This document shows positions 6,698 through 19,131 of a DNA stretch of 64,000 nucleotides, piece by piece. The notes below the pieces were generated by a model. The model was given only the letters and a program-made list of their open reading frames with translations. It ran no database searches and was not told the origin of the DNA. The stretch's first letter is position 1; every line of letters starts with the position of its first letter. This stretch comes from an uncultured Candidatus Saccharibacteria bacterium (GTDB lineage Bacteria; Patescibacteriota; Minisyncoccia; Phycocordibacterales; UBA3531). Position numbers and translations under genes: made by a program. The DNA is taken from the NCBI GenBank assembly GCA_964361405.1, contig CAYIAA010000001.1:20917-84916 (forward strand), given 5' to 3'.

Positions 6698-6898
6698 ATG
6701 GATAGTTCAATCAAACCTCGAGTCGTTTATACCACAGGAGAAGCACGGAGGATCCTCAAGATAAGCGAGAGCACAGTTAAACGTTTACTTAAGCGCGGTT
6801 TTCTGCGCGCCAACAAGGTTGGTGGACAGTACCGGATTCTTGGACAGGAACTCCTGCGTCTTGTCGTGCCGGAGAGAAAAAAGCAAACCCCACGATGA
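6698..6898 (+). CDS. excisionase-family helix-turn-helix DNA-binding protein
   Basis: 66 aa; TTGEARRILKISESTVKRLLKRGFLRANKVGGQYRI matches the MerR-like excisionase HTH pattern; ATGA overlap with the next gene. Confidence 0.55.
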   Translation: MDSSIKPRVVYTTGEARRILKISESTVKRLLKRGFLRANKVGGQYRILGQELLRLVVPERKKQTPR

Positions 6899-8241
6899 AA
6901 ACTGTCATGATGACTCTTTCCCGCGGATCCCTTATCCGCAACTTTTTTCATACAGGGATTGTTCCTGAACTCCTTCGTCGCGGATTACGTGTCGTAGTCT
7001 TGACTCCGCATTCGGATGACTCGGCTTTTGTACCTTACCGGCATCAAAATCTTATTTTTGAACCACTGATCGAATCGAAAAACTTGCGTTTCAATCAGCT
7101 ATTCATTGAGATTGAAAAAGGAATTATTTTCAATAAGACTGTACGTGCGCGCTACCGCTATCGCGTTGCCGGCAGGATACCGTCGCGTTTCTACTTTGTG
7201 GTGCGGATGTTTCTCTTTGCACCGCTCTCACTCATTCCCAGCATAAAGCGCTTTTTTCGCTGGGTTGATTTTCACGTGAACCCAGAACGTCAACATGATT
7301 ACCTTATTGAGAAATACAAACCGGATCTCATATTTTCAACATCAGCCGGCGGTGATATTTCGGTTATCAAAGGTGCACAGCGCTTTGGCACCAGGTCGGT
7401 TGATATGCCGAAAAGTTGGGACACATTACCAAAATATCTTTTCAATGTGAAAGCCGATTACATGGTCGTCTGGAGCGAGTTTATGAAAGAGCAAGCAATT
7501 GAAGTGCAAGGGTATCGCCCGGAGGAAGTTATCGTGACCGGCGTGCCGCAATTTGATTTTTATAAAGACGAAAAACGATTTATCTCGCGCGAGGAATTCT
7601 GCCGGCAGTTTGGATTTGATCCGGAAAAAAAAATCATTCTCTATGGTTCGACTGGGGGCAACTGCTGTGATGAGATGACATACATACAGCTTCTCCGGCG
7701 GTATATGGCGGACGGCATTTTGAAAGATGCACAGGTTTTAATCCGGCCGCACATTGGCTACCTCGGGGACGTGGATCGTTTTGCCGAGGCTGAACGTTAT
7801 CCAGGTTTTGCGCTCGACCTGAGCGGAAGACAAGGAAGTACGTTCCAAGACAGGTGGGACACGAGCGAGAGCCATGTGAATCATCTCGTCAATTCTTTCA
7901 GACACGCCGCGGTAAGTATCAATATTGCCTCAACGCTTTCTCTTGATTCGCTTGCAGCCGGGGTACCTGTGGTGAATATAAACTTCGACGTTGATCCGAA
8001 CATAAGTTCGCATTTTTCCACCAAGCGCTTGTATCAATCGGATTATATCGAAGCGGTTGTGCGTTCGGGCGGCACGCGGGTTGCCCGAAGTGAAAAGGCA
8101 TTTCGAGAAGCACTCACGGAAATTCTTGATGGTGGTGTGGTCGAGAAAGAGAAAGAATCGGCACTACGCTACCTTGTATTCCGCGCAGACGGTCACTCTG
8201 GGGAGCGGCTCACAGAGGCGCTTGTCGGTCTTTTACCATAA
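6895..8241 (+). CDS. GT-B fold transferase, CDP-glycerol glycerophosphotransferase (TagB/TagF)-like
   Basis: 448 aa; KKIILYGSTGG...VLIRPHIGY...SINIASTLSLDSLAAGVPVV parallels the TagF LYAPTWR / RFH / ITDYSS blocks; paralogous to 17752..19131 (shared MPKSWDT motif). Confidence 0.45.
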   Translation: MKTVMMTLSRGSLIRNFFHTGIVPELLRRGLRVVVLTPHSDDSAFVPYRHQNLIFEPLIESKNLRFNQLFIEIEKGIIFNKTVRARYRYRVAGRIPSRFYFVVRMFLFAPLSLIPSIKRFFRWVDFHVNPERQHDYLIEKYKPDLIFSTSAGGDISVIKGAQRFGTRSVDMPKSWDTLPKYLFNVKADYMVVWSEFMKEQAIEVQGYRPEEVIVTGVPQFDFYKDEKRFISREEFCRQFGFDPEKKIILYGSTGGNCCDEMTYIQLLRRYMADGILKDAQVLIRPHIGYLGDVDRFAEAERYPGFALDLSGRQGSTFQDRWDTSESHVNHLVNSFRHAAVSINIASTLSLDSLAAGVPVVNINFDVDPNISSHFSTKRLYQSDYIEAVVRSGGTRVARSEKAFREALTEILDGGVVEKEKESALRYLVFRADGHSGERLTEALVGLLP

Positions 8242-8245
8242 ACAT

Positions 8246-10171
8246 ATGTGCGCAATTATCGGAGTAGTCGGAAAAATTCCAGAGCGTGAAAAAGTCATCC
8301 GCGCTCGCGATACCATGACACATCGTGGTCCGGATGATGCCGGGATTTATTATATGCCCGAGGAAGGGGTGGCGCTTGGGCACCGACGTCTTTCCATCAT
8401 TGATCTCTCACCGTCGGGCCGTCAGCCCATGGAATCGGTGGATGGGCGTTTCGTGGTTACCTTTAACGGCGAGATTTATAATTACCAAGCACTTCGTTCC
8501 GAGCTTCGCAGTAAGTATAAATTTTCTACCGAGACAGACACGGAGACGATTCTCGCGGCGTTTTCAGTGTGGGGGCTTTCCTGCGTCAAACGGCTCCGCG
8601 GTATGTTTGCATTTGCGGTGTGGGATAAGAAAACGCGAAAGTGTTACCTCGTGCGTGACCGGCTTGGGATCAAGCCGCTTTACTATACAGAGCACGCGGG
8701 GAATTTTTATTTTTCTTCTGAAATCAAAGGCATCCTTCTGCTTTCTGACATTCCCCGAAAGCTCAATCGGGCCGCTTTCACCGATTATCTAAGTTATCGT
8801 TATCCTCTCGGAGGAAAAACATTTTTTGAGGGGATTCACTCGGTTTTACCCGGACAGATTATGACAATTGTTCCTGGTGGAAAAGTGGAAGAAACGTTGT
8901 ATTGGGATCTTCCCGTTGTCTCCGATAAAAAGGAACGCACCGAGGTCGAAGTCCTGTTTGAGACTGAACGGATTTTGAAGGAGACCGTCCGACTTCATCT
9001 GCAAAGCGACGTCCCGGTCGGGGCGTATCTTTCCGGTGGCATTGATTCAAGTCTTCTGGTTGCTTTGATGTCCGAGCTAACGAGTAAACCGGTCAAGACC
9101 TTTTCCGTCGGGTTTCCTGAAGTAGAGGCAAATGAATTCAGCTTTGCGCGGGAGGTCGCACAGCGCTATGGCACACAACATCGGGAAATTGAACTCGACG
9201 CGAAAAATTATCTCGCACTTCTGCCTGAAGTGATTCGGTTCAAGGACGCTCCTTTGGCAATCCCGAACGAGGTACCACTCCATGTGCTGTCTTCCGAATT
9301 GAAAAAACATATCACCGTGGTGCTCTCCGGCGAAGGAGCAGACGAACTCTTCGGCGGCTATGGGCGGATTTTTCGGAGCGGCTTTGATTGGGAGCGCATG
9401 TCATGTCTTCCGTTATTTCCGTTTTCGGATCATGAGCGAGGAGAGCTGAAGAAAAATTTAATCAGTAAATACGGCACTTCCTTTCCAAGGACAATCACAG
9501 AACATTTCACCGGAGAATACTCGTATATGCCAGTATCTGAAAAACAGGCGCTCTTGTCGGGAGAGCACTTCGATCTTTCCCGCCGCATGCTTTTGAACGA
9601 ATCCTTCTTTGAAACTTTTTTCGAGAAGGCGCGGACATTATCTTTTTCAGAGCAGTATCTCTATCTTTTCGAAAAGGTTCACATCATTGGTCCACTGGAA
9701 CGCTTGGATACGACGACAATGTCCCGATCGGTTGAAGCGCGGGTGCCGTATGTTGACCACGAGCTTGTTGAATTTGTCTCTGCGCTTCCGCTTTCTTTTA
9801 AGCTAAGGTGGAACGATATGGATGCAGAAACTGCCAGCCGTGTGTTGAATGCGGATCAGATCAGTGAAACATACGACACACCGAAATACATTTTGAGGAA
9901 ACTTGCTGAAAAATACTTGCCGGAGAATGTGATTAACCGTAAAAAAATGGGATTCCCCGTACCGCTCAATGCATGGATGGGGGGTGAGCTCTCATCCTAC
10001 GCTCGCGACATTCTCCTTAAACCCGACGCCCGCTTGAGCGGGTTATATAACGAGGAAACGCTCAAGCGTTTTCTTACCGAGCCGCCCCTCGCCCCCGGTC
10101 GCCGCGGTATGAATATCTGGATGCTCATTAACTTGGAATTATGGGCGAATGAGTATAAGGTAACAATTTAA
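8246..10171 (+). CDS. asnB: asparagine synthetase (glutamine-hydrolysing) family amidotransferase
   Basis: Start set at the MCAIIG ATG (8246), giving the N-terminal nucleophile Cys2; RGPDDAGIY, HRRLSIIDLS and the SGGIDSS PP-loop are present; 641 aa. Confidence 0.8.
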   Translation: MCAIIGVVGKIPEREKVIRARDTMTHRGPDDAGIYYMPEEGVALGHRRLSIIDLSPSGRQPMESVDGRFVVTFNGEIYNYQALRSELRSKYKFSTETDTETILAAFSVWGLSCVKRLRGMFAFAVWDKKTRKCYLVRDRLGIKPLYYTEHAGNFYFSSEIKGILLLSDIPRKLNRAAFTDYLSYRYPLGGKTFFEGIHSVLPGQIMTIVPGGKVEETLYWDLPVVSDKKERTEVEVLFETERILKETVRLHLQSDVPVGAYLSGGIDSSLLVALMSELTSKPVKTFSVGFPEVEANEFSFAREVAQRYGTQHREIELDAKNYLALLPEVIRFKDAPLAIPNEVPLHVLSSELKKHITVVLSGEGADELFGGYGRIFRSGFDWERMSCLPLFPFSDHERGELKKNLISKYGTSFPRTITEHFTGEYSYMPVSEKQALLSGEHFDLSRRMLLNESFFETFFEKARTLSFSEQYLYLFEKVHIIGPLERLDTTTMSRSVEARVPYVDHELVEFVSALPLSFKLRWNDMDAETASRVLNADQISETYDTPKYILRKLAEKYLPENVINRKKMGFPVPLNAWMGGELSSYARDILLKPDARLSGLYNEETLKRFLTEPPLAPGRRGMNIWMLINLELWANEYKVTI

Positions 10172-10180
10172 TTGAGAGAC

Positions 10181-11395
10181 ATGTATACAAAAAAAGACAA
10201 CCATGGAAAGGAAAGTAAGGGGTTGGGACTTGCCCGACTTGCGGATGATATTCCGGCCTTTTATGTGCTTGCGATTGATAAAATTGCAAATGAATATCAA
10301 CAAGCCGGGAAAGACGTTATCAAACTCAATCTTGGAAAGTCGGAGGTTCCGATGCCTAAATATGTTGCGGACGAGATGGTGCGGAATATCTACGACGGTA
10401 TCCGACGGGAAATGATCGATCCACAAGGACTCATTCCACTCCGCGAAGAAATTGCACATGCGCACGAGGCGGCTTCCGGAGTACAGGTCTCGCCGGACAA
10501 CGTCTTTATCAATAACGGGACGAGTCCGTTTTTCCTCTCATTTTTTCTCCTTCTTGCAGATCCTGGAGACGAGATTCTTCTTCCTCTCCCGTACTACCCG
10601 ACCTATGTGGCGAGTGCAAATATGGCGCGTCTCGGAAAAAGTTTCTACCGGATTGAAAACGGGCGGGTGAACATGGATGATATTCGCTCACGTTTTGTTC
10701 CCGGAAAAACGAAGATTGTATTTCTCAATTCCCCTGGGAATCCGTTGGGAAACGTACACACGAAGGAGGAACTCCGGGAAATTCTCGACATTGTTGACGG
10801 TCGTGCCTATGTTATTTCCGACGAGATTTACGACGGTTTCGTGTACGGAGACGACTATACCTCCATCTTGAGTGTATACAATCCCGCGCGGGACAAAGTC
10901 ATCGTCGTGAACGGTTTCTCGAAAATCCATCACATGTATACGAGGCGGCTTGGATACGCAATTGTACCAGAAGAATTGACACCGGCACTGCTTAGGTACC
11001 AACAGCATACGCTTGTCTGCGTCGACCCGATTACCCAGTTTGCGGGACTTGTTTCTATGAAGAACAAAGAACGCCTTATCCGTGACGAGACCAAGACAGA
11101 AGTTGAAGAGTATCGCCGCCGACTTCATGCGTCGGAGCGCATTCTCCGGAGCACGCACGCTCGGGTTATACCCCCCGCAGGCAGTTTCTACATGTGTTTG
11201 GATGTCTCGGGTTACCTTGGCGGTAAAACCTCCGATTCGCTCTCACTCGCTAAACTTCTTTTAAACGACGCACATGTTGCAATTACTCCCGCGGAAGATT
11301 TCGGTGGGAGCGATTTTTTCAGAGTGAGTCTTACGAGCAGTCGTGTGGTCGAAGGGATTGAACGGATAGCGGATTTTTTCGCACACTTTAAATGA
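10181..11395 (+). CDS. PLP-dependent aminotransferase, class I/II fold
   Basis: First ATG after an alternative TTG start; NGFSKIHHMYTRRLG carries the class-I aminotransferase Lys (SxSK...R) motif; about 404 aa. Confidence 0.7.
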   Translation: MYTKKDNHGKESKGLGLARLADDIPAFYVLAIDKIANEYQQAGKDVIKLNLGKSEVPMPKYVADEMVRNIYDGIRREMIDPQGLIPLREEIAHAHEAASGVQVSPDNVFINNGTSPFFLSFFLLLADPGDEILLPLPYYPTYVASANMARLGKSFYRIENGRVNMDDIRSRFVPGKTKIVFLNSPGNPLGNVHTKEELREILDIVDGRAYVISDEIYDGFVYGDDYTSILSVYNPARDKVIVVNGFSKIHHMYTRRLGYAIVPEELTPALLRYQQHTLVCVDPITQFAGLVSMKNKERLIRDETKTEVEEYRRRLHASERILRSTHARVIPPAGSFYMCLDVSGYLGGKTSDSLSLAKLLLNDAHVAITPAEDFGGSDFFRVSLTSSRVVEGIERIADFFAHFK

Positions 11396-13476
11396 AAGTT
11401 ATTCTCTGCGCAGCTGGAGTGGGGAGCCGGATGGGACCACTTACCCTTGATCGTTCAAAAGGACTTCTTCCACTGGGTGACAAGCTTTTGATCGAGCATA
11501 TACTTGACGCGGTTTCCGTTTGCGGCATCCGAGACGTTGTCATTGTTGTGGGGCACTTCGCACAGAAGGTTCGAGAGGCAGTGGGAGAAAGTTATGGCGG
11601 TTGCCGCATCACCTACGTTGAGAACCAAGAGTATGCCACGACACAAAATATTTACTCACTCTGGCTCGCGCGGAATCACGTGACTGACGGCATGGTATTT
11701 ATAAACGCCGATACCGTTTTTCACCCCACAATTTTGAAGATGCTCATTGATAGTCCACACGAGAATGCTTTTGCAATGAGTACCCCGATTAAGATTTTTG
11801 AGGATTCAATGAAGGTGTACCTTGAGGAGGATAAGCTTTTCGCAATTGGGAAAGAAATTGCCTACGAACCGCACGGGGAGGCTTTTGGCATCTATAAACT
11901 TTCACAGGAGGGAAGCAAAAAATACTTTTCCATTGCAGAAAATCTTTTTAAGTCGGACAAATACCATAAAACCGTTCCTTTTGTTGTGCCGCTTCAGATA
12001 ATGGCTAGTACGACGCCGATTAAAGCGGTTTCGTCCGGCGAATATCCATGGGCTGAAGTTGATACACCGGAAGATTATGAACGGGCACAGAAAATTATCG
12101 GGCTTATTAGCACTCCTTCGTCTACAAGCGGGCTCGTGAAGAATTACACTGTGGTGGCAACATCTCCCGAAAAGCGCTCACTTCTCAAGTGGTTCGAGAC
12201 AGGAATGCAAAGCATTTTACCGGAATTTCTCATACCAGCTACAGTTCGTGTCTCTCGAGACACCTTATTTGTTCAAGATAAATCATTTCCTTTAGCCAAT
12301 CGACGTGTATTTGTGATTGGAATCGGGAAAGCCGTCCTTGGAATGGCGAAGGCGATTGAAGACGTGCTTGGACTCGAACGGATTACAGCGGGTGTAGTTG
12401 TTTCAAACAGGGATACTGGGCAACTCCGTACTATCGAGGTGCATGAGGCGGATCATCCAGTGCCGTCGGAGCGTAGTGTTTTTGGGGCCAGGAAAGTACT
12501 CGACTTGAAAGCCAAACACAATCTGACTGAGCGGGATCTCTTAATTGCACTTATCTCCGGCGGCGGTTCATCGCTCTTGGCACACCCAGCGTCGGGCATC
12601 ACGCTTTCCGACAAACAGAAAATGATTGAACTCTTAATTCGGAGTGGCGCCACCGTGCACGAGATGACGGTTTTGAAGAAAAAGGTCTCAAGCGTGAAAG
12701 GAGGGAAGCTCGCGCGGCATTTTTATCCGACCCCCATTGTTTCTCTCACGCTCTCTGACGTCGTCGGGAATGATCTTACCGTAATCGCCTCGGGGCCGTT
12801 CGTCCATGACGAGACAACTATCGATGACGCATTCCGTATTATCGATACCTACAACCTCCGCTCCGTATTGCCGAAGAGTATTATGCAGTTTTTTGAAAGT
12901 CGTATCGGAAAAGAAGAAAAAGTTCCTTCATTTGACCACGTTCACCACACGCTTCTTGGGGATAATGATACGGTGCTCTATGCAATTAAAACGGCGGCAG
13001 AGAGTGATGGGGTTCGTGTGCATGTGAAATCCCGCCTTGAAGGCGAAGCAAGCGAAGTCGCACGCACTATCTGTGCCGATATTTCGAAACGGAAAATACA
13101 GGAACCGACGCTTTTTCTCTATGGCGGAGAGACGACGGTGAAACTTCCAGAGGCGCATGGTGTGGGCGGCAGGAATCAGGAATTCGTGTTATCGTGCCTT
13201 GAGTACTTCCGTGCTAATCCGCTCACCGCGCCCTGGGCGCTTCTGTCTCTCGGGACTGACGGAGTTGATTTTATTCCCGAAGCGGCTGGAGCCCTTGTTG
13301 ACCCCGAAACGATTAGAGACGCGGATAAGAAGGGTATTGACTTCGCTCACGCGCTTGCCACGCATGATTCGTATCCGGTGCTCCGCGATCTCGGAACGAT
13401 TGTTTCAACCGGCGGTCCGACAGGAACCAACGTTGGTGATGTAATTATGGTTTTTATTGACCCCAGGCATTCATGA
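11392..13476 (+). CDS. bifunctional fusion: LicC-like nucleotidyl(cytidylyl)transferase plus MOFRL/DUF4147 glycerate 2-kinase-like domain
   Basis: 694 aa. N-terminal MKVILCAAGVGSRMGPLT...KGLLP...NIYSL fits the NTP_transferase (LicC/MobA-like) fold. C-terminal IGIGKAVLGMA, ISGGGSSLL, VKGGKLAR, LSDVVGND, YGGETTV, GVGGRNQE and LGTDGVDF match glycerate-2-kinase (GckA/MOFRL) blocks. Confidence 0.65.
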   Translation: MKVILCAAGVGSRMGPLTLDRSKGLLPLGDKLLIEHILDAVSVCGIRDVVIVVGHFAQKVREAVGESYGGCRITYVENQEYATTQNIYSLWLARNHVTDGMVFINADTVFHPTILKMLIDSPHENAFAMSTPIKIFEDSMKVYLEEDKLFAIGKEIAYEPHGEAFGIYKLSQEGSKKYFSIAENLFKSDKYHKTVPFVVPLQIMASTTPIKAVSSGEYPWAEVDTPEDYERAQKIIGLISTPSSTSGLVKNYTVVATSPEKRSLLKWFETGMQSILPEFLIPATVRVSRDTLFVQDKSFPLANRRVFVIGIGKAVLGMAKAIEDVLGLERITAGVVVSNRDTGQLRTIEVHEADHPVPSERSVFGARKVLDLKAKHNLTERDLLIALISGGGSSLLAHPASGITLSDKQKMIELLIRSGATVHEMTVLKKKVSSVKGGKLARHFYPTPIVSLTLSDVVGNDLTVIASGPFVHDETTIDDAFRIIDTYNLRSVLPKSIMQFFESRIGKEEKVPSFDHVHHTLLGDNDTVLYAIKTAAESDGVRVHVKSRLEGEASEVARTICADISKRKIQEPTLFLYGGETTVKLPEAHGVGGRNQEFVLSCLEYFRANPLTAPWALLSLGTDGVDFIPEAAGALVDPETIRDADKKGIDFAHALATHDSYPVLRDLGTIVSTGGPTGTNVGDVIMVFIDPRHS

Positions 13477-14360
13477 ATGAGCACAAACACAAAATGACTA
13501 CCGAGGAGGTTCGCGTCTACTGGGGCAAGAAGAACATTCCCCAGCAGTGGTACTCGAAGAAAGACCCGTTCACGAGGCAATGGTTTAACGAACTTGCTTA
13601 TAAAAGGTATAGCCGCTACTACCCATACTTGAAAGACGAATTGGAATTTGAGAATCACCGTGGCGAAGAAATTCTCGAAATCGGCTGCGGTATCGGCACG
13701 GACTTAGCTGAATTTGCCCAAGGCGGCGCCGTTGTCACTGGCACCGACCTCGGTCCGGATCAAGTGATGCTCTCGAAACTAAACCTCGACCTCCGTGGTC
13801 TACCCTATAAAGAGATTACAGAAGCTAATGTTGAGAACCTCCCGTTTCCGGACGGTTCATTTGACCTTGTTTACTCAATCGGCGTTATACATCATGTTGC
13901 AAATCCCGAGAAAGCGATAAGTGAGATATTCCGCGTGCTCAAGCCCGACGGGAAGGCGATTGTGCTCGTCTATGCCCGCGGCTGGAAACACTACCTCAAG
14001 CGATGTCTCGTGCACGGCATTCTCAAGGGAAAGTGGTTTCGATACGGGTTTGACTGGCGGAAGGTGAGGAGCGAGGTGTCCGAGGTCCACGGTTCTTCAC
14101 CTCGTACCGAGATTTGGACGAAGCGCGAGGTCCGGAAACTGTTTAAACAATTTCCGACGCTTGAAATCAAGAAGCGGCGGCTCGGAGAATTTTTCGAGTA
14201 TAAACCCTACAATACCGTGATGTTTCCGGCGTTCGTAAGAAATATTCTTTTCCTTCTCGGACTTGAATCTCTCATCGGTGAGAATTGGTTCGTGAAAGCA
14301 GATAAAACAAAATGGCCAAAAGAGGAAACCTTCTTTGGAGTGTGGTGGAGACACTACTAG
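13473..14360 (+). CDS. class I SAM-dependent methyltransferase
   Basis: 295 aa; motif I ILEIGCGIGTD; VLKPDGKAIV post-I region. Confidence 0.65.
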   Translation: MNEHKHKMTTEEVRVYWGKKNIPQQWYSKKDPFTRQWFNELAYKRYSRYYPYLKDELEFENHRGEEILEIGCGIGTDLAEFAQGGAVVTGTDLGPDQVMLSKLNLDLRGLPYKEITEANVENLPFPDGSFDLVYSIGVIHHVANPEKAISEIFRVLKPDGKAIVLVYARGWKHYLKRCLVHGILKGKWFRYGFDWRKVRSEVSEVHGSSPRTEIWTKREVRKLFKQFPTLEIKKRRLGEFFEYKPYNTVMFPAFVRNILFLLGLESLIGENWFVKADKTKWPKEETFFGVWWRHY

Positions 14361-14370
14361 GAGTAAATTG

Positions 14371-15186
14371 ATGCAACACTACACCCTAAAGGAAATTCGC
14401 GAGAAACGGTTTGATCCGAAACGAAGTCGGGCACGTATCATAAGCGAGCGATATGTAGTATTGAACGCTATCGGGAAGCTCGTCTCGCCGTATCCGACCT
14501 ATGCATTTCTCAACCTCGGACTCACACCGGATGTGATAACGCTCGTAAGTATCGGTTTCATCATCGCGAGTGCGGGATTTTTCCTCGCGGGTCAATCGGT
14601 TCTAGCGGCAATAGGACTCTTATGTTTCCTGCTCTGTGACAGCGTGGACGGCGACATGGCGCGCGTGCGCGGCTCCACGCGTTACGGCGGTGTCATCGAC
14701 TCCTACGGAGCCGACTTCTTTTATGCTCTTATCCCATCGTCTATTGGTTTTTTCCTTTTTTCACGAGGCACAACGATAGCTGCTTTTTCTCCGGAGGTTG
14801 TTCTGATGATCGCTGTTTCTGTTTCGCTCACCTTTACGCTCTACCGATCAATTAATATCAAGCTTGTGGGGTTTTTGGAGCGGGAGGGCGCAATTACGAA
14901 AGGAGACGCATTCTCGGGAATGAATTCCGAAGGAAAGTTCTCGGTCTCTCTGTGGGCGAGGAAAGTGGTAAAGTTATTCCGCCATGAGGTGGTGAAGGGA
15001 AATTTTTTTTCCGAACCCGGCTTAGTTCTCTGGTTCTCACTCGGTATGTTTACCGGCGCTTATGCGGCCCTTGCCTGGTATCTCGTGGCGCTTCTTTTCT
15101 ATAACCTCGTATGGCTTCTCATCACACTTGTGCGTTCATATATAACATTCCTTCACATCGAGAAAACACCTCACTCTAATTCCTGA
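14371..15186 (+). CDS. CDP-alcohol phosphatidyltransferase family membrane protein
   Basis: Start at the ATG 9 nt after AGGAG; signature D-G-x2-A-R-x8-G-x3-D-x3-D is present as DSVDGDMARVRGSTRYGGVIDSYGADFF; multiple TM helices. Confidence 0.65.
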   Translation: MQHYTLKEIREKRFDPKRSRARIISERYVVLNAIGKLVSPYPTYAFLNLGLTPDVITLVSIGFIIASAGFFLAGQSVLAAIGLLCFLLCDSVDGDMARVRGSTRYGGVIDSYGADFFYALIPSSIGFFLFSRGTTIAAFSPEVVLMIAVSVSLTFTLYRSINIKLVGFLEREGAITKGDAFSGMNSEGKFSVSLWARKVVKLFRHEVVKGNFFSEPGLVLWFSLGMFTGAYAALAWYLVALLFYNLVWLLITLVRSYITFLHIEKTPHSNS

Positions 15187-15193
15187 TAGCACC

Positions 15194-16003
15194 ATGCCTG
15201 ACAATAAAGCATTTGAGGAAAAATGGGCGAGCGTTTGCGGTGGCACGGGTAAAGTAGAAGAGAAAACCGTTTTTGTTCCAAGAGGCGCTCAACCGAAAAC
15301 CCAGAGGCAATTTAACCTTCTCCATTACTTCGAATTCATTGCCAGGCGTATTGAAGGCAAGGGTTACCGGACTGCGCTTGAAGTGGGGTGCGGCCGTGGC
15401 ACGATCGGACTCTATCTGAACCGCTACCTTGGCATGAACGTGACTCTTCTCGATTCATCACAGGATGCGGTGGAACTTGCGCGGTGGAATTTCACGCACT
15501 GGGGTGGAAAGGGGGTATTTCGAATCGAAGACGCTCGCGCGCTTTCTTTCCCCGAATCGAGTTTTGACGTTATTGCGACAATTGGACTTCTCGAGCATTT
15601 CGAGGACTATAGACCAGTGTTACGGGAAATGCATCGAGTGCTTAAACCCGGAGGGGTTTTGTTTTCGGTGAACATTCCGAAGAAAAAATCCGTTCAGGTT
15701 TTGAACAGTATCTTCCGCTCCTTTTTGCGTTTTGGAAAGACAGGGCTTCATAAAGATTACTTCAGGAATACCGACACGCCGGGTGATTTCAAATGCCACG
15801 CTGAAGAGGCCGGATTTAAGGATGTAAAAGTGTTTTACGTCAATCCTTTTCCGCTCTTTACTCCCATACCAGCGTGGGCGGAGCGGGCGCTTGCGAGACT
15901 TTATCGCGCGATCTACGCCGCCAGAGGTCTGGTGATGCCGTATCCCTTCCGAGGATCAAGAATGTTCTCACAGGCTCATTTCTTATCAGCAAAGAAAAAA
16001 TAG
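15194..16003 (+). CDS. class I SAM-dependent methyltransferase
   Basis: 269 aa; LEVGCGRGTIGL motif I; VLKPGGVL. Confidence 0.65.
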   Translation: MPDNKAFEEKWASVCGGTGKVEEKTVFVPRGAQPKTQRQFNLLHYFEFIARRIEGKGYRTALEVGCGRGTIGLYLNRYLGMNVTLLDSSQDAVELARWNFTHWGGKGVFRIEDARALSFPESSFDVIATIGLLEHFEDYRPVLREMHRVLKPGGVLFSVNIPKKKSVQVLNSIFRSFLRFGKTGLHKDYFRNTDTPGDFKCHAEEAGFKDVKVFYVNPFPLFTPIPAWAERALARLYRAIYAARGLVMPYPFRGSRMFSQAHFLSAKKK

Positions 16004-16004
16004 T

Positions 16005-17747
16005 ATGTGCGCGATCATTGGAGCAGTGGGGAAGAAACTTCCTGCGCGGGAAATATTTGAACGCGCGCGCGACACTATGGCGCATCGCGGTCCGGATGGC
16101 ATGGGTATTTATTACGAGCCGAAAGAGGGGATTGCCCTGGGACATCGGCGACTTGCGATTATTGATCTCTCGAACGCAGGCAATCAGCCGATGATTTCAA
16201 ACGATGGGCGCTATCAGATTGTTTTTAATGGCGAGATCTATAACTATCTCGAACTCAAGCGAGAACTTAAAGGATATCAATTTAAAACAAAAACTGACAC
16301 TGAAGTTTTGTTAGCCGCCTACGAGCGTTGGGGGACGAATTGCCTCGATCGGCTCGAAGGTATGTTTAGTTTCGCGATCTGGGATTCGCGCGAGAAATCA
16401 CTTTTTGCCGCGCGGGATCGTTTTGGCGAGAAACCGTTCTTTTATTCTGTTCTCGGCGCCGACACTTTCGTTTTTGCTTCCGAAATAAAAGGTCTTTTGG
16501 CTCTTGGGGTGAAACCGAAAATTAATGAATCGGCCATCCATGCATACCTTGTATACGGTTATTATGACCACTCGAATGAAACGTTTTTTGATGGGGTACA
16601 GGTGCTTCCACCCGGACACATGATATCTCGCGGCCAGGACGGGGACCTGGACATTACTCGGTACTGGGATATTGCCGATGCGCGCCCTATCATTCCAACG
16701 TCGCCAGAAGGAATTCTTGAGCGATATAAAGAGCTTCTCGAGAAGTCGGTGGAACTTCGTTTCAGAAGCGACGTACCGGTAGGACTCAATCTCTCAAGCG
16801 GACTTGATTCAAATTCACTTCGCTATTTCTCCGAATGCACGATGGGAAAGACTGTTGACATGTTTTCATTGTGTCTTCCAAGCGATGAATACAATGAATG
16901 TGATCTGATTGAGAAATTTCTCACCGAGGATGAGAAAAAACGTTGGCATACTACCGTAATGACACCAGAAAATGTGTGGAGCGACATTGAACGTATGGTG
17001 AAAATCGAAGATCAACCATTTGGCGGTGTGCCAACCATTGCATACTTAGCACTTCCGGAGCTTGCGAAACGTTCATCGGTTACCGTTCTTCTTGAAGGGC
17101 AAGGGCTCGACGAGCTTCTTGGCGGCTATCCTTACTATCTATCGCTTGTCGAGGCGGGGAATATGCCCGCGTTGCCGGGGAAAAGCCAAGATATGTCGCA
17201 GGAAACGGATGGATCAGTTCTCGAACAAGCGTTCGTTGGCCAATATGCTGGTGGCGCATTCCGTTTTCCGGAACCCTTTTCTTCGCCTCTTATGAATGCC
17301 CAATATCGCGATATAGGGTATACCAAGCTCCCGCGAGTGCTTCGGTTCAATGACCACGCGTCGATGGCACTGGGCCGAGAGCTTCGTATGCCATATCTAT
17401 CGCGTGAGTTTGCAGAGTTCTGCTTTCACCTCCCACTTGCGGAGAAAATTCTAAGTGGGGAACAGAAGGTGCTAAACCGGCGGGCGATGAAAGAGTATCT
17501 CCCTAGCGTTGTGCGAGCAAAGCAGAAAAAAGTTTTTGGAGCCATACAGACCGAATGGTTCCGAAAATACTACAAAGACGCTACTCTAGGGGTTCTCGCT
17601 TCATCTTCATTTCGATCCCGTCCGTATTGGAACCATGTTGTTCTTGAGGAGAAAGTGCAACGCTTTTTTAGTGGCGAAGGAACCAACTCATTTTTTATTT
17701 GGCAGTGTATTAACCTTGAGTTTTGGCTTAGAGAATTTATTGACTAA
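16005..17747 (+). CDS. asparagine synthetase family amidotransferase (second paralog)
   Basis: 580 aa; MCAIIGAVGK N-terminal nucleophile, RGPDGMGIY, HRRLAIIDLS, SSGLDSNS PP-loop variant. Confidence 0.8.
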   Translation: MCAIIGAVGKKLPAREIFERARDTMAHRGPDGMGIYYEPKEGIALGHRRLAIIDLSNAGNQPMISNDGRYQIVFNGEIYNYLELKRELKGYQFKTKTDTEVLLAAYERWGTNCLDRLEGMFSFAIWDSREKSLFAARDRFGEKPFFYSVLGADTFVFASEIKGLLALGVKPKINESAIHAYLVYGYYDHSNETFFDGVQVLPPGHMISRGQDGDLDITRYWDIADARPIIPTSPEGILERYKELLEKSVELRFRSDVPVGLNLSSGLDSNSLRYFSECTMGKTVDMFSLCLPSDEYNECDLIEKFLTEDEKKRWHTTVMTPENVWSDIERMVKIEDQPFGGVPTIAYLALPELAKRSSVTVLLEGQGLDELLGGYPYYLSLVEAGNMPALPGKSQDMSQETDGSVLEQAFVGQYAGGAFRFPEPFSSPLMNAQYRDIGYTKLPRVLRFNDHASMALGRELRMPYLSREFAEFCFHLPLAEKILSGEQKVLNRRAMKEYLPSVVRAKQKKVFGAIQTEWFRKYYKDATLGVLASSSFRSRPYWNHVVLEEKVQRFFSGEGTNSFFIWQCINLEFWLREFID

Positions 17748-17751
17748 AGTT

Positions 17752-19131
17752 ATGAAGCAGAAAACTATTTTTATCGTCGTTTCACAGACTATTATCATTC
17801 GGAACATTTTACGCTCCGGTGTATTTGATGCACTTCGCAAAAAAGGTTACAGACTTGTCATCTTCTTTAACTGCGAGCGTCTCCCGGACTATATCTCGGA
17901 AGAGTTCAGTGGTTCCGATGTCACGCTTATCGCTATCCACGACACGAGAGTTGGTCGTCTCCATCGAAAATTTATTGAGTTCACACACCTCTTGCTTTGG
18001 ACTAAAACGACGAGGCGCTATTTCCGTTATAGTCGTAATTTCGTTGAGAAATCGCGTATTATCGTATGGTTCCACCTTGCCGCGATGCGTCTCTTGAGTA
18101 CCATGGGTTTTCTTAAACCGCTTTCGCGCTGGATCGAGGGGATGTTCTTCAAGGAAAGAGATCAAGATGTCGAGACATGTTTCGATCGGTACAAGCCGGA
18201 CTTGGTGTTTTCGACTTCAATCACCTCTAAAATGGACAATGTCTTTATAAAGGCGGCTAAACGGCGCAGTATTCTGACTGTTTCCATGCCGAAGAGTTGG
18301 GATACGGCGACGAAAATGTATTACCGTTTCGTGCCGGATTATTTCATAGTGCAGAACGAACTCCTGAAAGATCAGCTCGTCAATCTTCAGGATTTTTCCC
18401 GGGAGAAGGTTTTTGTCGTCGGCTACCCGCAGTTTGACTGGTATGCGAGGGAAGAAATCATCCGTTCCCGAGAGGAGCATTTCAAAAAAATGGGGCTTGA
18501 TCCGAAGCTCCCGCTCATACTTTTTGGTTCGCAGGGAAGCTGGTACGACAAAGACTACCAGGTTGTCGAGAAAATCTACGAATGGATTCGGAAAGACGAG
18601 CTTGCGCGTCCCGCACAGCTCTTGGTCCGACCCCACTTCTCAAATGTAAAGAAGAATCCTTTCCAGAAATACCGGAATCTTCCGCGGGCGGCTTACGACG
18701 ATTCCTACCGCATATCGTACGATTTCCGGGACAATTGGGATCCGAGTGTTGCTGAAACGATAGATCTCGCGAACACCATTGCCCACGCGGATGTAGTCGT
18801 TATTATTCTCTCAACGCTTGCGCTTGACGCCGCTTGCCGCGATAAACCAGTGATTAACGCGCTCTTCGGGGCGAAATACCGGAAAGGGAAGGATATTACA
18901 CCGCTCATGCAGTACACGAGCCACTACGAATGGGTTATCGACACCGACGCCACATTCCGCGCGAACTCGCCCGAGGAGCTAAAGCGTTATATCAATATCT
19001 GTCTTCAAAATCCGTCAGTGAAGGCGGAGGAGCGGAAAGTCCTCCGTGAACGGCTGTGTTACCGGGTTGACGGAAGGTCGTCGGAACGCTTAGTTCTCGC
19101 GCTTGGAGAGATAATTAAGCGGGGAGAGTAA
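17752..19131 (+). CDS. GT-B fold transferase, TagB/TagF (CDP-glycerol glycerophosphotransferase)-like, paralog of 6895..8241
   Basis: Start moved to MKQKTIF (17752); MPKSWDT, LILFGSQGSW, LLVRPHF and VVIILSTLALDAACRDKPVI blocks. Confidence 0.45.
   Translation: MKQKTIFIVVSQTIIIRNILRSGVFDALRKKGYRLVIFFNCERLPDYISEEFSGSDVTLIAIHDTRVGRLHRKFIEFTHLLLWTKTTRRYFRYSRNFVEKSRIIVWFHLAAMRLLSTMGFLKPLSRWIEGMFFKERDQDVETCFDRYKPDLVFSTSITSKMDNVFIKAAKRRSILTVSMPKSWDTATKMYYRFVPDYFIVQNELLKDQLVNLQDFSREKVFVVGYPQFDWYAREEIIRSREEHFKKMGLDPKLPLILFGSQGSWYDKDYQVVEKIYEWIRKDELARPAQLLVRPHFSNVKKNPFQKYRNLPRAAYDDSYRISYDFRDNWDPSVAETIDLANTIAHADVVVIILSTLALDAACRDKPVINALFGAKYRKGKDITPLMQYTSHYEWVIDTDATFRANSPEELKRYINICLQNPSVKAEERKVLRERLCYRVDGRSSERLVLALGEIIKRGE

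What the first reader, a model, noticed from the sequence alone, without database searches (positions are those of the whole stretch)
11392..15186. Cytidylyltransferase::glycerate-2-kinase fusion, two genes upstream of a CDP-alcohol phosphotransferase: predicted CDP-phosphoglycerate-type head-group pathway
One polypeptide joins a LicC-like nucleotidyltransferase domain, which activates a phospho-alcohol with CTP, to a MOFRL/DUF4147 glycerate-2-kinase domain (GGETTV, GGRNQE and GTDGxDF blocks), which makes 2-phosphoglycerate from glycerate. A methyltransferase gene (13473..14360) lies between this fusion and a CDP-alcohol phosphatidyltransferase with an intact DG-x2-AR...G-x3-D-x3-D motif, and a D-2-hydroxyacid (glycerate/hydroxypyruvate) dehydrogenase gene sits at 24983. 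By analogy with the IPCT/DIPPS and LicC/LicD logic, the cluster looks built to make a CDP-activated phosphoglycerate (or closely related phospho-hydroxyacid) and transfer it onto a glycan or polyol acceptor. Three TagF-like transferases nearby would then assemble a teichoic-acid-like polymer. A CDP-glycerate-type donor is not an established metabolite as far as I know.
Basis: partly seen in the sequence, partly recalled or inferred. Interest (0 to 1): 0.75.

Follow-up and report, generated by a model that had tools for sequence, protein, structure and literature searches.

The report
Glycerate kinase fused to CDP-glycerate synthase
One gene in an uncultivated groundwater bacterium joins a glycerate-kinase-type domain to a cytidylyltransferase resembling the recently described CDP-glycerate synthase CpgD, inside a conserved seven-gene cassette that probably attaches glycerate phosphate (or its amide) to a cell-surface polymer.

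Summary
ORF 11392..13476 is one uninterrupted 694-aa protein with a LicC/IPCT-type (COG1213) nucleotidyltransferase domain and a DUF4147+MOFRL glycerate-2-kinase-type domain. It is followed by a methyltransferase and a CDP-alcohol phosphotransferase.

It is not an assembly artefact. The identical protein lies on 7 contigs, and ten 90%-identity clusters (42-79% identical) carry the same fusion. Relatives have the two genes separate but 6 bp apart or overlapping.

CDP-glycerate was shown in 2025 to be made by Caulobacter CpgD, also a COG1213 enzyme. Its proposed user, CpgA, is a CDP-alcohol phosphotransferase family member.

The window's N-domain is 30% identical to CpgD over its full length. 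It keeps the catalytic, cytosine-reading and glycerate-contacting residues N90, N110, M147 and K161.

Nine distinct loci share a cassette: AsnB-like amidotransferase, AspAT-like aminotransferase, D-2-hydroxyacid dehydrogenase, nucleotidyltransferase, kinase, methyltransferase and CDP-alcohol phosphotransferase. TagF-like transferases and an ABC exporter sit beside it.

Best reading: serine -> hydroxypyruvate -> D-glycerate -> 2-phosphoglycerate -> CDP-glycerate -> surface polymer.

Caveats: the kinase clade replaces two otherwise invariant residues (N->T, R->K). The transferase motif ends D-x4-D rather than D-x3-D. Nothing has been tested biochemically. I rate it a new variant of a known kind.

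The parts
6895..8241 (+). TagF-like (Glyphos_transf / BFO_1060-family) transferase 1
   Evidence: Pfam PF04464 at 22.4 bits (cut-off 22.1); NCBIfam BFO_1060_trans 6.4e-14. Orthologous position in L001, L005, L009 and L011.
8246..10171 (+). AsnB-like glutamine amidotransferase 1. The probable start is Met64 of the listed ORF, giving an MCAIIG N-terminal nucleophile.
   Evidence: Asn_synthase 1.6e-86 plus GATase_7; TIGR01536 aligns from aa 65; called as 641 aa on the identical contig. Sits next to the aminotransferase (upstream of the nucleotidyltransferase in L011, which lacks one) in all nine loci.
10181..11395 (+). AspAT-like class I/II aminotransferase, translationally coupled to the fusion
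   Evidence: Aminotran_1_2 3.8e-48; best PDB match T. maritima AspAT 1o4s at 8.3e-54; ATGA overlap with the fusion start; 52-60% identical in L009 and L012.
11392..12099 (+). N-terminal CpgD/LicC-type (COG1213) cytidylyltransferase domain of the fusion (aa 1-236)
   Evidence: 30% identity to CpgD over 246 aa. G9/G11/R13, K23, T84, N86, S89, N105, D107, M139 and K154 correspond to CpgD G12/G14/R16, K26, T88, N90, T93, N110, D112, M147 and K161.
12100..12135 (+). Short linker (about aa 237-248). The retained N-terminus of the kinase ('VKNYTVVATSPEKR', cf. stand-alone 'MIFSNYKELATSP') follows directly.
   Evidence: Junction comparison with the split genes of L009 and L011.
12136..13476 (+). C-terminal MOFRL-class (class II) glycerate-2-kinase-type domain (DUF4147 + MOFRL), T426/K429 variant
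   Evidence: Pfam. PDB PH0495 1x3l at 5e-75 and TM1585 2b8n at 1.1e-63. 48 of 50 family-conserved columns are kept; N->T426 and R->K429 differ.
13473..14360 (+). SAM-dependent methyltransferase 1; sits between the kinase and the CDP-OH transferase in 8 of the 9 loci examined
   Evidence: Methyltransf_11 9.6e-26. 68% identical in L009. PDB hits are weak and core-only, and include phosphoethanolamine N-methyltransferases.
14371..15186 (+). CDP-alcohol phosphotransferase family membrane protein (CpgA/PIPS-like), motif DSVDGDMAR-x7-G-x3-D-x4-D
   Evidence: PF01066 at 33 bits; PIPS 6h5a at 3.2e-7; 29% identity over 119 aa to Caulobacter CpgA; motif.
15194..16003 (+). SAM-dependent methyltransferase 2
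   Evidence: Methyltransf_25/11; same position in L009.
16005..17747 (+). AsnB-like glutamine amidotransferase 2 (MCAIIG start)
   Evidence: Asn_synthase 1.7e-51 plus GATase_7; same position in L001.
17752..19131 (+). TagF-like transferase 2 (probable start at Met40 of the listed ORF)
   Evidence: PF04464 at 30.1 bits. The orthologous gene follows the CDP-OH transferase in L003, L005, L100 and L101.
19760..21547 (+). Fused ABC exporter (ABC_membrane + ABC_tran)
   Evidence: conserved next to the cassette in L001, L003, L005, L009, L100 and L101.
21550..23082 (+).
   Evidence: PF05159 at 27.6 bits; same position in L001 and L003.
24962..25960 (+). D-2-hydroxyacid dehydrogenase (PGDH / hydroxypyruvate-reductase-like). 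Displaced here, but contiguous with the cassette in other loci.
   Evidence: 2-Hacid_dh_C 1.6e-48. PDB 1wwk at 7.2e-45 and GRHPR about 1e-32. Lies directly between the aminotransferase and the nucleotidyltransferase or fusion in L003, L004, L100 and L101.

Best explanation
The ORF is a true end-to-end fusion of two consecutive enzymes. The MOFRL-type kinase domain phosphorylates D-glycerate, or a very close derivative such as D-glyceramide, at O-2 using ATP. The CpgD-like cytidylyltransferase domain then condenses that phosphate ester with CTP to give CDP-glycerate (CDP-2-glycerate) and pyrophosphate.

The fusion is the core of a conserved cassette in candidate-phyla-radiation (Parcubacteria-type) bacteria. 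I infer the following flow:
1. The AspAT-like aminotransferase converts serine to hydroxypyruvate.
2. The D-2-hydroxyacid dehydrogenase reduces hydroxypyruvate to D-glycerate.
3. The fusion converts D-glycerate to the CDP-linked donor.
4. The CpgA-like CDP-alcohol phosphotransferase and/or the TagF-like enzymes transfer glycerate-2-phosphate, releasing CMP, onto a lipid-linked or glycan acceptor.
5. The AsnB-like amidotransferase(s) and methyltransferase(s) modify the carboxyl group, for example to the amide.
6. The ABC exporter moves the finished polymer out.

Shown here: domain identities, the reality and recurrence of the fusion, synteny, and residue conservation. Inferred: every substrate, the order of amidation and methylation, and the acceptor.
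For: 1. Domain identity. All characterised MOFRL kinases make 2-phosphoglycerate (PMC2063504), and CpgD prefers D-2-phosphoglycerate.

2. Similarity to CpgD. The N-domain is 30% identical to CpgD over 246 aa, scoring 89.8 phmmer bits against 52.4 for LicC, the best PDB entry. CpgD's own best PDB hit scores only 46.9 bits.

3. [quoted passage not shown] They are conserved across nearly all fused and split relatives. The residue at the N110 position is D in LicC, E in PntC and M in IPCT.

4. The fusion is real. The identical protein is on 7 contigs. Ten 90%-identity clusters carry it, and an exhaustive search of 1.84 billion cluster representatives finds only three full-length fused representatives and one truncated fragment among its best 150 hits.

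5. Split orthologues. The nucleotidyltransferase lies immediately upstream of the kinase, 6 bp apart or overlapping, in L009, L011, L100 and L101.

6. Synteny. Nine distinct loci share AsnB - aminotransferase - (dehydrogenase) - nucleotidyltransferase - kinase - methyltransferase - CDP-OH transferase - TagF-like - ABC exporter. The order aminotransferase, dehydrogenase, nucleotidyltransferase, kinase is contiguous in L003, L100 and L101.

7. Precedent for the partner enzyme. CpgA, the proposed CDP-glycerate user, is a CDP-OH_P_transf protein.

8. The product class exists in nature. Glycerate-2-phosphate is attached to the Paenibacillus alvei S-layer glycan; a TagF-like domain is predicted to add it, and that cluster also has an AsnB homologue (PMC2943079). 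D-glyceramide 2-phosphate occurs in the Providencia alcalifaciens O22 O-antigen.
Against: - No biochemistry was done.
- The kinase clade carries T and K where 93 of 93 other homologues have invariant N and R. Its substrate or regiochemistry may therefore differ from canonical glycerate 2-kinase.
- Over its whole length the N-domain is more similar (125-142 bits) to an uncharacterised group that has Glu at the N110 position and a different, kinase-free operon than it is to CpgD (100 bits). Only in the substrate lobe is CpgD among the best matches (45 bits), tied with another uncharacterised group.
- CpgD S170 and W201 are not conserved.
- A third, divergent fusion lineage (P0194) has His at the N110 position.
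- The aminotransferase and dehydrogenase are closest to AspAT and to 3-phosphoglycerate dehydrogenase, not to known serine:glyoxylate aminotransferase or hydroxypyruvate reductase.
- The CDP-OH transferase has a non-canonical D-x4-D spacing. Its similarity to CpgA is only at family level.
- The genome encodes GAPDH, so 2-phosphoglycerate may be available from glycolysis. That leaves the need for a dedicated kinase unexplained.
Confidence: 0.6

Rival explanations
1. The pathway runs through the amide. An AsnB-like enzyme first converts D-glycerate to D-glyceramide. The variant (T/K) kinase makes D-glyceramide 2-phosphate, and the nucleotidyltransferase makes CDP-glyceramide. The polymer then carries glyceramide 2-phosphate, as in the Providencia alcalifaciens O22 O-antigen. 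This is a variant of the main explanation with a different order of steps.
For: - An AsnB-like gene with an intact N-terminal Cys is part of the cassette in all nine loci.
- The kinase clade has lost the invariant Arg and Asn of canonical glycerate kinases, as might be expected if the carboxylate is no longer the group recognised.
- D-glyceramide 2-phosphate exists in a natural glycan.
Against: - Arg is replaced by Lys, which keeps the positive charge.
- The CpgD residues that contact glycerate are kept.
- AsnB-like enzymes in glycan clusters could equally amidate the finished polymer or another acidic sugar. The same cluster has a NeuC-like gene and a CTP_transf_3 gene.
- No structural mapping of T426 and K429 was possible.
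Confidence: 0.2
2. The nucleotidyltransferase activates an amino-phospho compound derived from the aminotransferase, for example phosphoserine made from 3-phosphoglycerate by the PGDH-like dehydrogenase plus the aminotransferase, or an N-methylated derivative. The head group would then be zwitterionic and choline- or serine-like. The kinase would only feed carbon into the phosphoglycerate pool.
For: - The dehydrogenase's best PDB matches are 3-phosphoglycerate dehydrogenases.
- Methyltransferase 1 weakly resembles phosphoethanolamine N-methyltransferases.
- The relatives most similar to the N-domain over its whole length sit in operons of PLP enzyme, nucleotidyltransferase, methyltransferases and CDP-OH transferase, which look like amino-alcohol pathways.
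Against: - Those relatives have Glu at the N110 position, as does the aminophosphonate enzyme PntC. The cassette clade has Asn, like CpgD.
- Their PLP enzyme is HisC/CobD-like and only 24-26% identical to the window's AspAT-like enzyme.
- A kinase fused or adjacent to the nucleotidyltransferase in every lineage argues for consecutive steps. No phosphoglycerate mutase is present in the cassette.
- The methyltransferase similarity covers only the SAM-binding core.
Confidence: 0.1
3. CDP-glycerate is made, but for a soluble phosphodiester (a compatible solute analogous to di-myo-inositol phosphate from IPCT/DIPPS) or for a membrane lipid head group (a phosphatidyl-glycerate-type lipid), not for a teichoic-acid-like polymer.
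For: - The IPCT/DIPPS precedent pairs a COG1213 enzyme with a CDP-OH transferase.
- In Caulobacter the acceptor is a lipid.
- The CDP-OH transferase is an integral membrane protein.
Against: In nine loci the cassette is embedded among TagF-like transferases, glycosyltransferases, an ABC exporter, a KpsC/S-like protein and nonulosonic-acid genes. The lipid option is not exclusive, since a lipid-linked glycerate phosphate could be the primer of the polymer.
Confidence: 0.08
4. The fusion is an assembly or frameshift artefact, or the two domains are functionally unrelated.
For: None was found. The source is a metagenome, so the possibility had to be checked.
Against: - The identical 694-aa protein lies on 7 independently assembled contigs from different samples.
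- Ten fused clusters at 42-79% identity exist, and all four fused genes translated from DNA have no internal stop.
- The junction keeps the kinase's native N-terminal residues.
- The split versions are adjacent and in the same order.
Confidence: 0.02

Closest known systems
CpgD / CpgA of Caulobacter crescentus (ceramide diphosphoglycerate pathway; PMC12275187, PMC13228409, PMC9393093)
   Same: - A COG1213 cytidylyltransferase making CDP-glycerate is paired with a CDP-alcohol phosphotransferase family membrane enzyme.
- The N-domain is 30% identical to CpgD over its full length.
- It shares the catalytic, cytosine-reading and glycerate-pocket residues N90, N110, M147 and K161.
   Different: - Here the cytidylyltransferase is fused or adjacent to a kinase that would supply the phosphoglycerate. 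Caulobacter has none nearby, and the CpgD authors list a dedicated supplier as an open question.
- The context is a glycopolymer/capsule-like cluster in CPR bacteria, not sphingolipid genes.
- The CDP-OH transferase is only 29% identical to CpgA over 119 aa, lacks CpgA's roughly 180-aa N-terminal extension and has D-x4-D spacing.
- CpgD S170 and W201 are not conserved.
Class II (MOFRL) glycerate 2-kinases: TM1585, PH0495, T. tenax GK, GckA, GLYCTK
   Same: - Same two-domain DUF4147+MOFRL architecture.
- 5e-75 to PH0495.
- 48 of 50 family-conserved columns are kept, including the GKA, SGGGS, KGG, SDV, GGET, GGxN and TDGxD blocks.
   Different: - The invariant N and R of the E-I-N-x-x-R-K-H motif are T and K in the whole cassette clade.
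- It is fused to a nucleotidyltransferase.
- The setting is biosynthetic (glycan cluster) rather than catabolic.
IPCT/DIPPS (bifunctional inositol-1-phosphate cytidylyltransferase / DIPP synthase)
   Same: The logic is the same: a COG1213 cytidylyltransferase makes a CDP-alcohol, which a CDP-OH_P_transf enzyme passes to a hydroxyl acceptor.
   Different: - The fusion partner differs: a kinase upstream of the nucleotidyltransferase step, rather than the transferase downstream.
- The residue at the specificity position is Met in IPCT and Asn here.
- The product is expected to be a surface polymer, not a solute.
LicC/LicD and TagD/TagF phospho-alcohol decoration and polymerisation systems
   Same: A phospho-alcohol is activated with CTP and then transferred as a phosphodiester onto glycans. 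TagF-like genes flank the cassette.
   Different: - LicC has Asp at the specificity position and uses phosphocholine.
- TagD is an unrelated fold.
- No LicD homologue was found among the window ORFs scanned against Pfam.
- The TagF-like hits here are marginal (22-30 bits).
Paenibacillus alvei S-layer glycan GroA-2-phosphate addition (WsfC TagF-like domain; WsfA AsnB homologue)
   Same: A natural glycan carries 2-phosphoglycerate through a phosphodiester. Its cluster contains a TagF-like domain and an asparagine-synthase homologue.
   Different: The donor and its biosynthesis were not defined there. I could not compare the genes, as no P. alvei sequence was fetched.
Serine -> hydroxypyruvate -> D-glycerate -> 2-phosphoglycerate route (serine cycle; animal gluconeogenesis from serine)
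   Same: The same three enzyme types (aminotransferase, D-2-hydroxyacid dehydrogenase, MOFRL kinase) act in the same order. They are contiguous in L003, L100 and L101.
   Different: The aminotransferase is AspAT-like (class I), not class V. The dehydrogenase is nearest to PGDH. The route ends in CTP activation instead of glycolysis.

Membership tests
CpgD-type CTP:phosphoglycerate cytidylyltransferase (COG1213) | Nucleotidyltransferase fold with the catalytic residues R16, K26 and D112 and the G-x-G-x-R loop | tested here: met
   G9-x-G11-x-R13, K23 and D107 are invariant in the 8-sequence alignment; in the larger alignment they are missing only from N-terminally truncated sequences. Pfam NTP_transf_3.
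CpgD-type CTP:phosphoglycerate cytidylyltransferase (COG1213) | Cytosine-specific contacts (T88 backbone, T93 side-chain hydroxyl) | tested here: met
   T84 and S89 (a hydroxyl is kept) in all cassette-clade sequences. The same is true of LicC, so this shows CTP use, not glycerate use.
CpgD-type CTP:phosphoglycerate cytidylyltransferase (COG1213) | Glycerate-pocket residues N90, N110, M147, K161 (direct and van der Waals contacts) and S170 (water-mediated) | tested here: inconclusive
   - N86, N105, M139 and K154 are conserved; S170 is Ala.
- N110 is the only discriminating position: D in LicC, E in PntC, M in IPCT.
- M147 and K161 also occur in groups with other residues at position 110.
- The divergent fusion P0194 has His at position 110.
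CpgD-type CTP:phosphoglycerate cytidylyltransferase (COG1213) | Closer to CpgD than to enzymes of other specificity | tested here: inconclusive
   It is closer to CpgD than to any PDB entry (89.8 vs 52.4 bits). However, uncharacterised Glu-type homologues score higher overall (125-142 bits). In the substrate lobe CpgD is among the best matches, at 45 bits.
CpgD-type CTP:phosphoglycerate cytidylyltransferase (COG1213) | Makes CDP-glycerate from CTP and 2-phosphoglycerate | not testable with these tools
   This needs an enzyme assay.
Class II (MOFRL) glycerate 2-kinase | DUF4147 + MOFRL two-domain architecture with significant similarity to characterised or solved members | tested here: met
   PF13660 at 6.6e-69 and PF05161 at 1e-28. 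1x3l at 5e-75 and 2b8n at 1.1e-63. It is below the NCBIfam equivalog cut-offs (216 bits against 550).
Class II (MOFRL) glycerate 2-kinase | All family-invariant residues | tested here: not met
   48 of 50 conserved columns are kept. Invariant N and R (93 of 93 other homologues) are T426 and K429 in all 28 cassette-clade sequences.
Class II (MOFRL) glycerate 2-kinase | Phosphorylates D-glycerate at O-2 | not testable with these tools
   Inferred from the family and from the preference of CpgD for D-2-phosphoglycerate.
CDP-alcohol phosphotransferase (PF01066), CpgA-like | Pfam domain above the gathering threshold | tested here: met
   33 bits against 22. PIPS 6h5a at 3.2e-7.
CDP-alcohol phosphotransferase (PF01066), CpgA-like | Signature D-x2-D-G-x2-A-R-x8-G-x3-D-x3-D | tested here: not met
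   The window has D-x2-DG-x2-AR-x7-G-x3-D-x4-D, and so do the eight related loci scanned, six distinct. CpgA has the canonical spacing. All acidic residues are present; only the spacing deviates.
CDP-alcohol phosphotransferase (PF01066), CpgA-like | Specific (orthologue-level) similarity to CpgA | tested here: inconclusive
   29% identity over 119 aa at 38.5 bits, no better than to PIPS.
IPCT/DIPPS bifunctional enzyme | Cytidylyltransferase fused to the CDP-OH transferase in one polypeptide | tested here: not met
   They are separate genes with a methyltransferase between them. The NCBIfam IPCT/DIPPS model scores 69 bits against a cut-off of 580.
TagF-like CDP-glycerol glycerophosphotransferases | Pfam Glyphos_transf domain | tested here: inconclusive
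   Two neighbours pass marginally, at 22.4 and 30.1 bits against a cut-off of 22.1. The third is Capsule_synth.

The most novel reading that the evidence does not exclude
Parcubacteria-type CPR bacteria make a previously undescribed anionic (or amidated, neutral) wall polymer whose phosphodiester unit is glycerate-2-phosphate or glyceramide-2-phosphate. It would be a 'glycerate teichoic acid', built from serine by a dedicated seven-gene CDP-glycerate cassette. The cassette's kinase is a neofunctionalised MOFRL enzyme (T/K variant). If so, CDP-glycerate is a general glycan-building nucleotide, and this cassette would suggest a donor route for the phosphoglycerate substituents long known on S-layer glycans and O-antigens.
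Probability: 0.3. Interest if true: 0.7.

Novelty: new variant of a known kind. Interest (0 to 1): 0.55.

Why it matters
CDP-glycerate has so far been demonstrated only for one Caulobacter sphingolipid pathway. Its authors note that a dedicated source of phosphoglycerate may exist but is unidentified.

This locus gives a genomic answer in a different lineage: a kinase physically fused to the cytidylyltransferase. It also places the pair in a glycopolymer cluster. That suggests how glycerate-2-phosphate and glyceramide-2-phosphate substituents, known chemically on S-layer glycans and O-antigens, could be donated.

The cassette also offers a concrete, clonable handle on the cell-envelope chemistry of uncultivated CPR bacteria. 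Finally, it flags two residues (T426 and K429) that define a new subclade of MOFRL kinases.

Tried and rejected
- A strict regex for the canonical CDP-OH motif found nothing in any locus. Relaxing the spacing showed the conserved x7 / D-x4-D variant.
- The CpgD structures are not in the PDB copy. CpgD's own sequence finds at best 46.9 bits, so no structure-level comparison with CpgD was possible. Its sequence was recovered from a published cloning primer instead.
- CpgA was not within the 8-kb Caulobacter loci. It was recovered from metagenome loci fetched with CpgD. It lies about 6.5 kb from cpgD, directly upstream of a DAGK_cat (ceramide kinase-like) gene.
- These literature searches returned nothing useful: glycerate 2-kinase + cytidylyltransferase + polysaccharide; DUF4147/MOFRL + nucleotidyltransferase + Patescibacteria; glyceramide + O-antigen gene clusters.
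- The T. maritima glycerate kinase mutagenesis paper (Yang et al. 2008) is not held. I therefore could not say what the invariant N and R do, and no model coordinates are returned that would allow mapping them.
- The contig of the third fusion lineage (P0194) is only 4.9 kb and shows two SDRs and a HAD hydrolase, so the cassette could not be assessed there.
- I first took 'closer to CpgD than anything else' as evidence of orthology. I rejected that after finding uncharacterised homologues with higher overall scores but a different pocket and operon.
- I did not run structure prediction. Sequence-level homology of all domains was already unambiguous, and the output would not give residue distances.

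Full report
**Observation.** The window has a long run of co-directional genes on the + strand.
- ORF 11392..13476 encodes 694 aa with no internal stop.
- Pfam places an NTP_transf_3/NTP_transferase domain at aa 3-124, DUF4147 at aa 264-501 (6.6e-69) and MOFRL at aa 574-683 (1e-28).
- The start codon overlaps the stop of the upstream aminotransferase (ATGA), and the stop overlaps the start of the downstream methyltransferase (ATGA). The three genes are therefore translationally coupled.
- Next come a methyltransferase (13473..14360), a CDP-alcohol phosphotransferase family protein (called start 14371, end 15186), a second methyltransferase and a second AsnB-like amidotransferase.
- The D-2-hydroxyacid dehydrogenase is at 24962..25960.
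- Two details in the finding are not right. The transferase motif is D-x2-DG-x2-AR-x7-G-x3-D-x4-D, not ...D-x3-D. Only two neighbours are TagF-like by Pfam, and weakly (22.4 and 30.1 bits); the third is Capsule_synth-like.

**The fusion is real.**
- The identical 694-aa protein is encoded on 7 contigs from several samples, including a 150-kb contig from a 0.1-µm groundwater fraction.
- Ten 90%-identity clusters at 42-79% identity have the same architecture. The only named one is from a Parcubacteria-group genome.
- An exhaustive HMMER scan of 1.84 billion cluster representatives finds just three full-length fused representatives and one truncated fragment among its best 150 hits. The fusion is therefore rare.
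- The next-best relatives of the kinase half (44-50% identity) are stand-alone proteins. In L009/L010, L011, L100 and L101 their gene lies immediately downstream of a 240-255-aa nucleotidyltransferase gene, 6 bp apart or overlapping.
- The fusion junction keeps the native N-terminus of the kinase ('...IFKNYEELATSP' against stand-alone 'MIFSNYKELATSP'). The fusion therefore arose by loss of a stop codon between two adjacent genes.

**The N-domain.**
- The best solved relatives are LicC (52 bits, N-terminal half only), the phosphonate cytidylyltransferase PntC, and the inositol-1-phosphate cytidylyltransferases. The last two match over the full length. Sugar-1-phosphate transferases match the nucleotide-binding half only.
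Caulobacter CpgD (CCNA_01210), a COG1213 enzyme, makes CDP-glycerate from CTP and phosphoglycerate and prefers D-2-phosphoglycerate. Product-bound structures are described (PMC12275187, PMC13228409).
- I recovered the CpgD sequence by searching genomes with the published cloning primer.
- The window's N-domain is 30% identical to CpgD over 246 aa (100 BLAST bits, 89.8 phmmer bits). CpgD's own best PDB hit scores 46.9 bits.
- CpgD's functional residues are conserved in the window. R16, K26 and D112 (catalytic), T88 and T93 (cytosine-reading) and N90, N110, M147 and K161 (glycerate pocket) appear as R13, K23, D107, T84, S89, N86, N105, M139 and K154. They are also conserved in nearly all fused and split relatives. 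S170 and W201 are not conserved.
- The residue at the N110 position is Asp in LicC, Glu in PntC and Met in IPCT. It behaves like a specificity position.

**A caution on orthology.**
- A search with the N-domain alone found a larger uncharacterised group at 30-36% identity that scores higher overall (125-142 bits).
- That group has Glu at this position. It sits in a compact operon of a HisC/CobD-like PLP enzyme, the nucleotidyltransferase, methyltransferases and a CDP-OH transferase, with no kinase.
- The extra similarity lies in the nucleotide lobe. In the substrate lobe, CpgD is among the best matches.
- I therefore treat the N-domain as CpgD-like in its pocket, not as a demonstrated orthologue.

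**The C-domain.**
- It matches P. horikoshii PH0495 (5e-75) and T. maritima TM1585 glycerate kinase (1.1e-63) end to end.
- All characterised MOFRL kinases make 2-phosphoglycerate (PMC2063504), which is CpgD's preferred substrate.
- Of 50 columns at least 95% conserved in 91 stand-alone homologues, 48 are kept.
- The other two are invariant N and R in 93 of 93 other sequences (E-I-N-x-x-R-K-H-x-S-x-x-K-G-G). They are T and K in all 28 members of the cassette clade, fused or split.
- These are the only two positions conserved in both groups and invariant in each that separate them; one weaker difference (I versus L at position 416) also appears.
- Close neighbours of the clade vary at the N position. 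The divergent fusion P0194 has Q..R.
- I could not map these residues on a structure, so their meaning is open. A shift of substrate (for example to glyceramide) or of regulation is possible.

**The cassette.**
- Nine distinct loci share the same genes: the window, L001, L003/4, L005, L009/10, L011, L012, L100 and L101. All are apparently from CPR-type organisms.
- The shared genes are an AsnB-like glutamine amidotransferase, an AspAT-like aminotransferase, a D-2-hydroxyacid dehydrogenase, the nucleotidyltransferase, the kinase, a methyltransferase and the CDP-OH transferase.
- Usually these are flanked by TagF-like transferases and followed by a fused ABC exporter and a KpsC/S-like protein.
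- In L003, L100 and L101 the order aminotransferase - dehydrogenase - nucleotidyltransferase - kinase is contiguous.
- That trio plus a MOFRL kinase is the classical route serine -> hydroxypyruvate -> D-glycerate -> 2-phosphoglycerate. However, the aminotransferase is nearest to AspAT and the dehydrogenase nearest to 3-phosphoglycerate dehydrogenase.
- L011 lacks the aminotransferase and dehydrogenase. Next to the kinase it has an enolase-superfamily dehydratase, KduI and an SDR. That would fit an alternative, sugar-acid source of glycerate.
- The rest of the window's cluster encodes glycosyltransferases, a carbamoyltransferase, NeuC-like and CMP-sugar synthetase-like enzymes, a sulfotransferase, sulfate-activation genes and an O-antigen-ligase-like protein. 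It is a surface-glycopolymer locus.

**The transfer step.**
- In Caulobacter the proposed user of CDP-glycerate is CpgA, described as having a PgsA domain.
- I located it in metagenome loci fetched with CpgD. It is a 375-aa CDP-OH_P_transf protein with the canonical motif, directly upstream of a DAGK_cat gene.
- The window's transferase is from the same family but is only 29% identical to CpgA over 119 aa. That is no closer than to mycobacterial PIP synthase.
- The pairing 'CpgD-like cytidylyltransferase + CDP-OH transferase' therefore has a direct precedent, but orthology is not shown.
- The TagF-like enzymes are an alternative or additional user. In Paenibacillus alvei a TagF-like domain is predicted to add glycerate-2-phosphate to the S-layer glycan, and that cluster also contains an asparagine-synthase homologue.
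- D-glyceramide 2-phosphate occurs in a Providencia O-antigen. This makes amidation by the cassette's AsnB-like enzymes a reasonable guess.

**Rivals.**
- An amide-first order (CDP-glyceramide) is a variant I cannot exclude.
- An amino-phospho head group is disfavoured by the Asn/Glu difference, by the different PLP enzyme family and by the fused kinase.
- A soluble solute is disfavoured by context.
- An artefact is excluded.

**Verdict.**
The donor is no longer unknown chemistry.
- What is new is the kinase::cytidylyltransferase fusion, the T/K kinase subclade, the seven-gene cassette and its setting in CPR surface-polymer clusters. I found no paper describing any of these.
- I rate it a new variant of a known kind, interest 0.55.
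- My confidence is 0.6 that the fusion makes a CDP-activated glycerate-type donor. It is about 0.3 for the full 'glycerate/glyceramide-phosphate wall polymer' picture.

Noticed in passing
window 27765..29999 (+), next to the sulfotransferase at 25965..26888: One 744-aa ORF combines a pyruvate-kinase barrel domain (aa 2-317, 8.4e-68), a PUA_2 domain and an ATP-sulfurylase domain (aa 522-733, 1.4e-77). A pyruvate-kinase-barrel::ATP-sulfurylase fusion beside a sulfotransferase is unusual. It may couple PEP-driven ATP regeneration to sulfate activation for a sulfated glycan.
   Followed up: no
L015 6889..12478; L016; L017/L018 6892..10388: - Relatives of the N-domain at 30-36% identity (labelled 'choline kinase' by JGI) lie in a compact operon.
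- The operon holds a HisC/CobD-like PLP enzyme, a nucleotidyltransferase, 1-3 methyltransferases and a CDP-OH transferase, with no kinase or glycan genes.
- Their nucleotidyltransferase has Glu where CpgD has N110, as PntC does.
- This looks like an uncharacterised CDP-amino-alcohol (ethanolamine- or choline-like) lipid head-group pathway.
   Followed up: partly
window 12667..12678 (T426, K429 of the fusion); P0001-P0027: Every kinase of the cassette clade has T and K where 93 of 93 other MOFRL homologues have invariant N and R (E-I-N-x-x-R-K-H motif). These are the only two positions conserved in both groups and invariant in each that separate them. The functional meaning is unknown.
   Followed up: partly
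L011 11344..14028: One cassette variant lacks the aminotransferase and dehydrogenase. Directly after the kinase it has an enolase-superfamily (MR_MLE) dehydratase, a KduI-like isomerase and an SDR, followed by a GH57 enzyme. This may be an alternative, sugar-acid-derived supply of glycerate.
   Followed up: no
L008 3208..4083 (+) / L020 10759..11517 (-), adjacent to cpgD: In Caulobacter a second MobA-like NTP_transf_3 gene (4.1e-12) lies next to cpgD, convergently transcribed (its 3' end meets cpgD's). I saw no function assigned to it in the papers I read.
   Followed up: no
L020 16487..17614: Caulobacter CpgA has an N-terminal extension of about 180 aa with no Pfam hit ahead of its CDP-OH_P_transf domain. 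The CPR transferase lacks it.
   Followed up: no
L005 11102..11899; L012 9748..10371: A NUDIX hydrolase (L005) or a HIT-family protein (L012) is inserted inside the cassette. These may act in nucleotide-linked intermediate turnover or proofreading.
   Followed up: no
L003 12348..12596; L004 553..804 and 13333..13629; L100 4985..5233; L101 3131..3379: A small HTH_17 (excisionase/MerR-like) gene recurs just upstream of the AsnB-like gene of the cassette in several loci. It could be a dedicated regulator or a mobility remnant. None is evident at that position in the window.
   Followed up: no
window 32371..34641 (+): A 756-aa protein combines an O-antigen-ligase/polymerase-like Wzy_C domain with C-terminal TPR repeats at the end of the glycan cluster. 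It is followed by housekeeping genes: SecA, tRNA-Pro, MurB, GatB and GAPDH.
   Followed up: no
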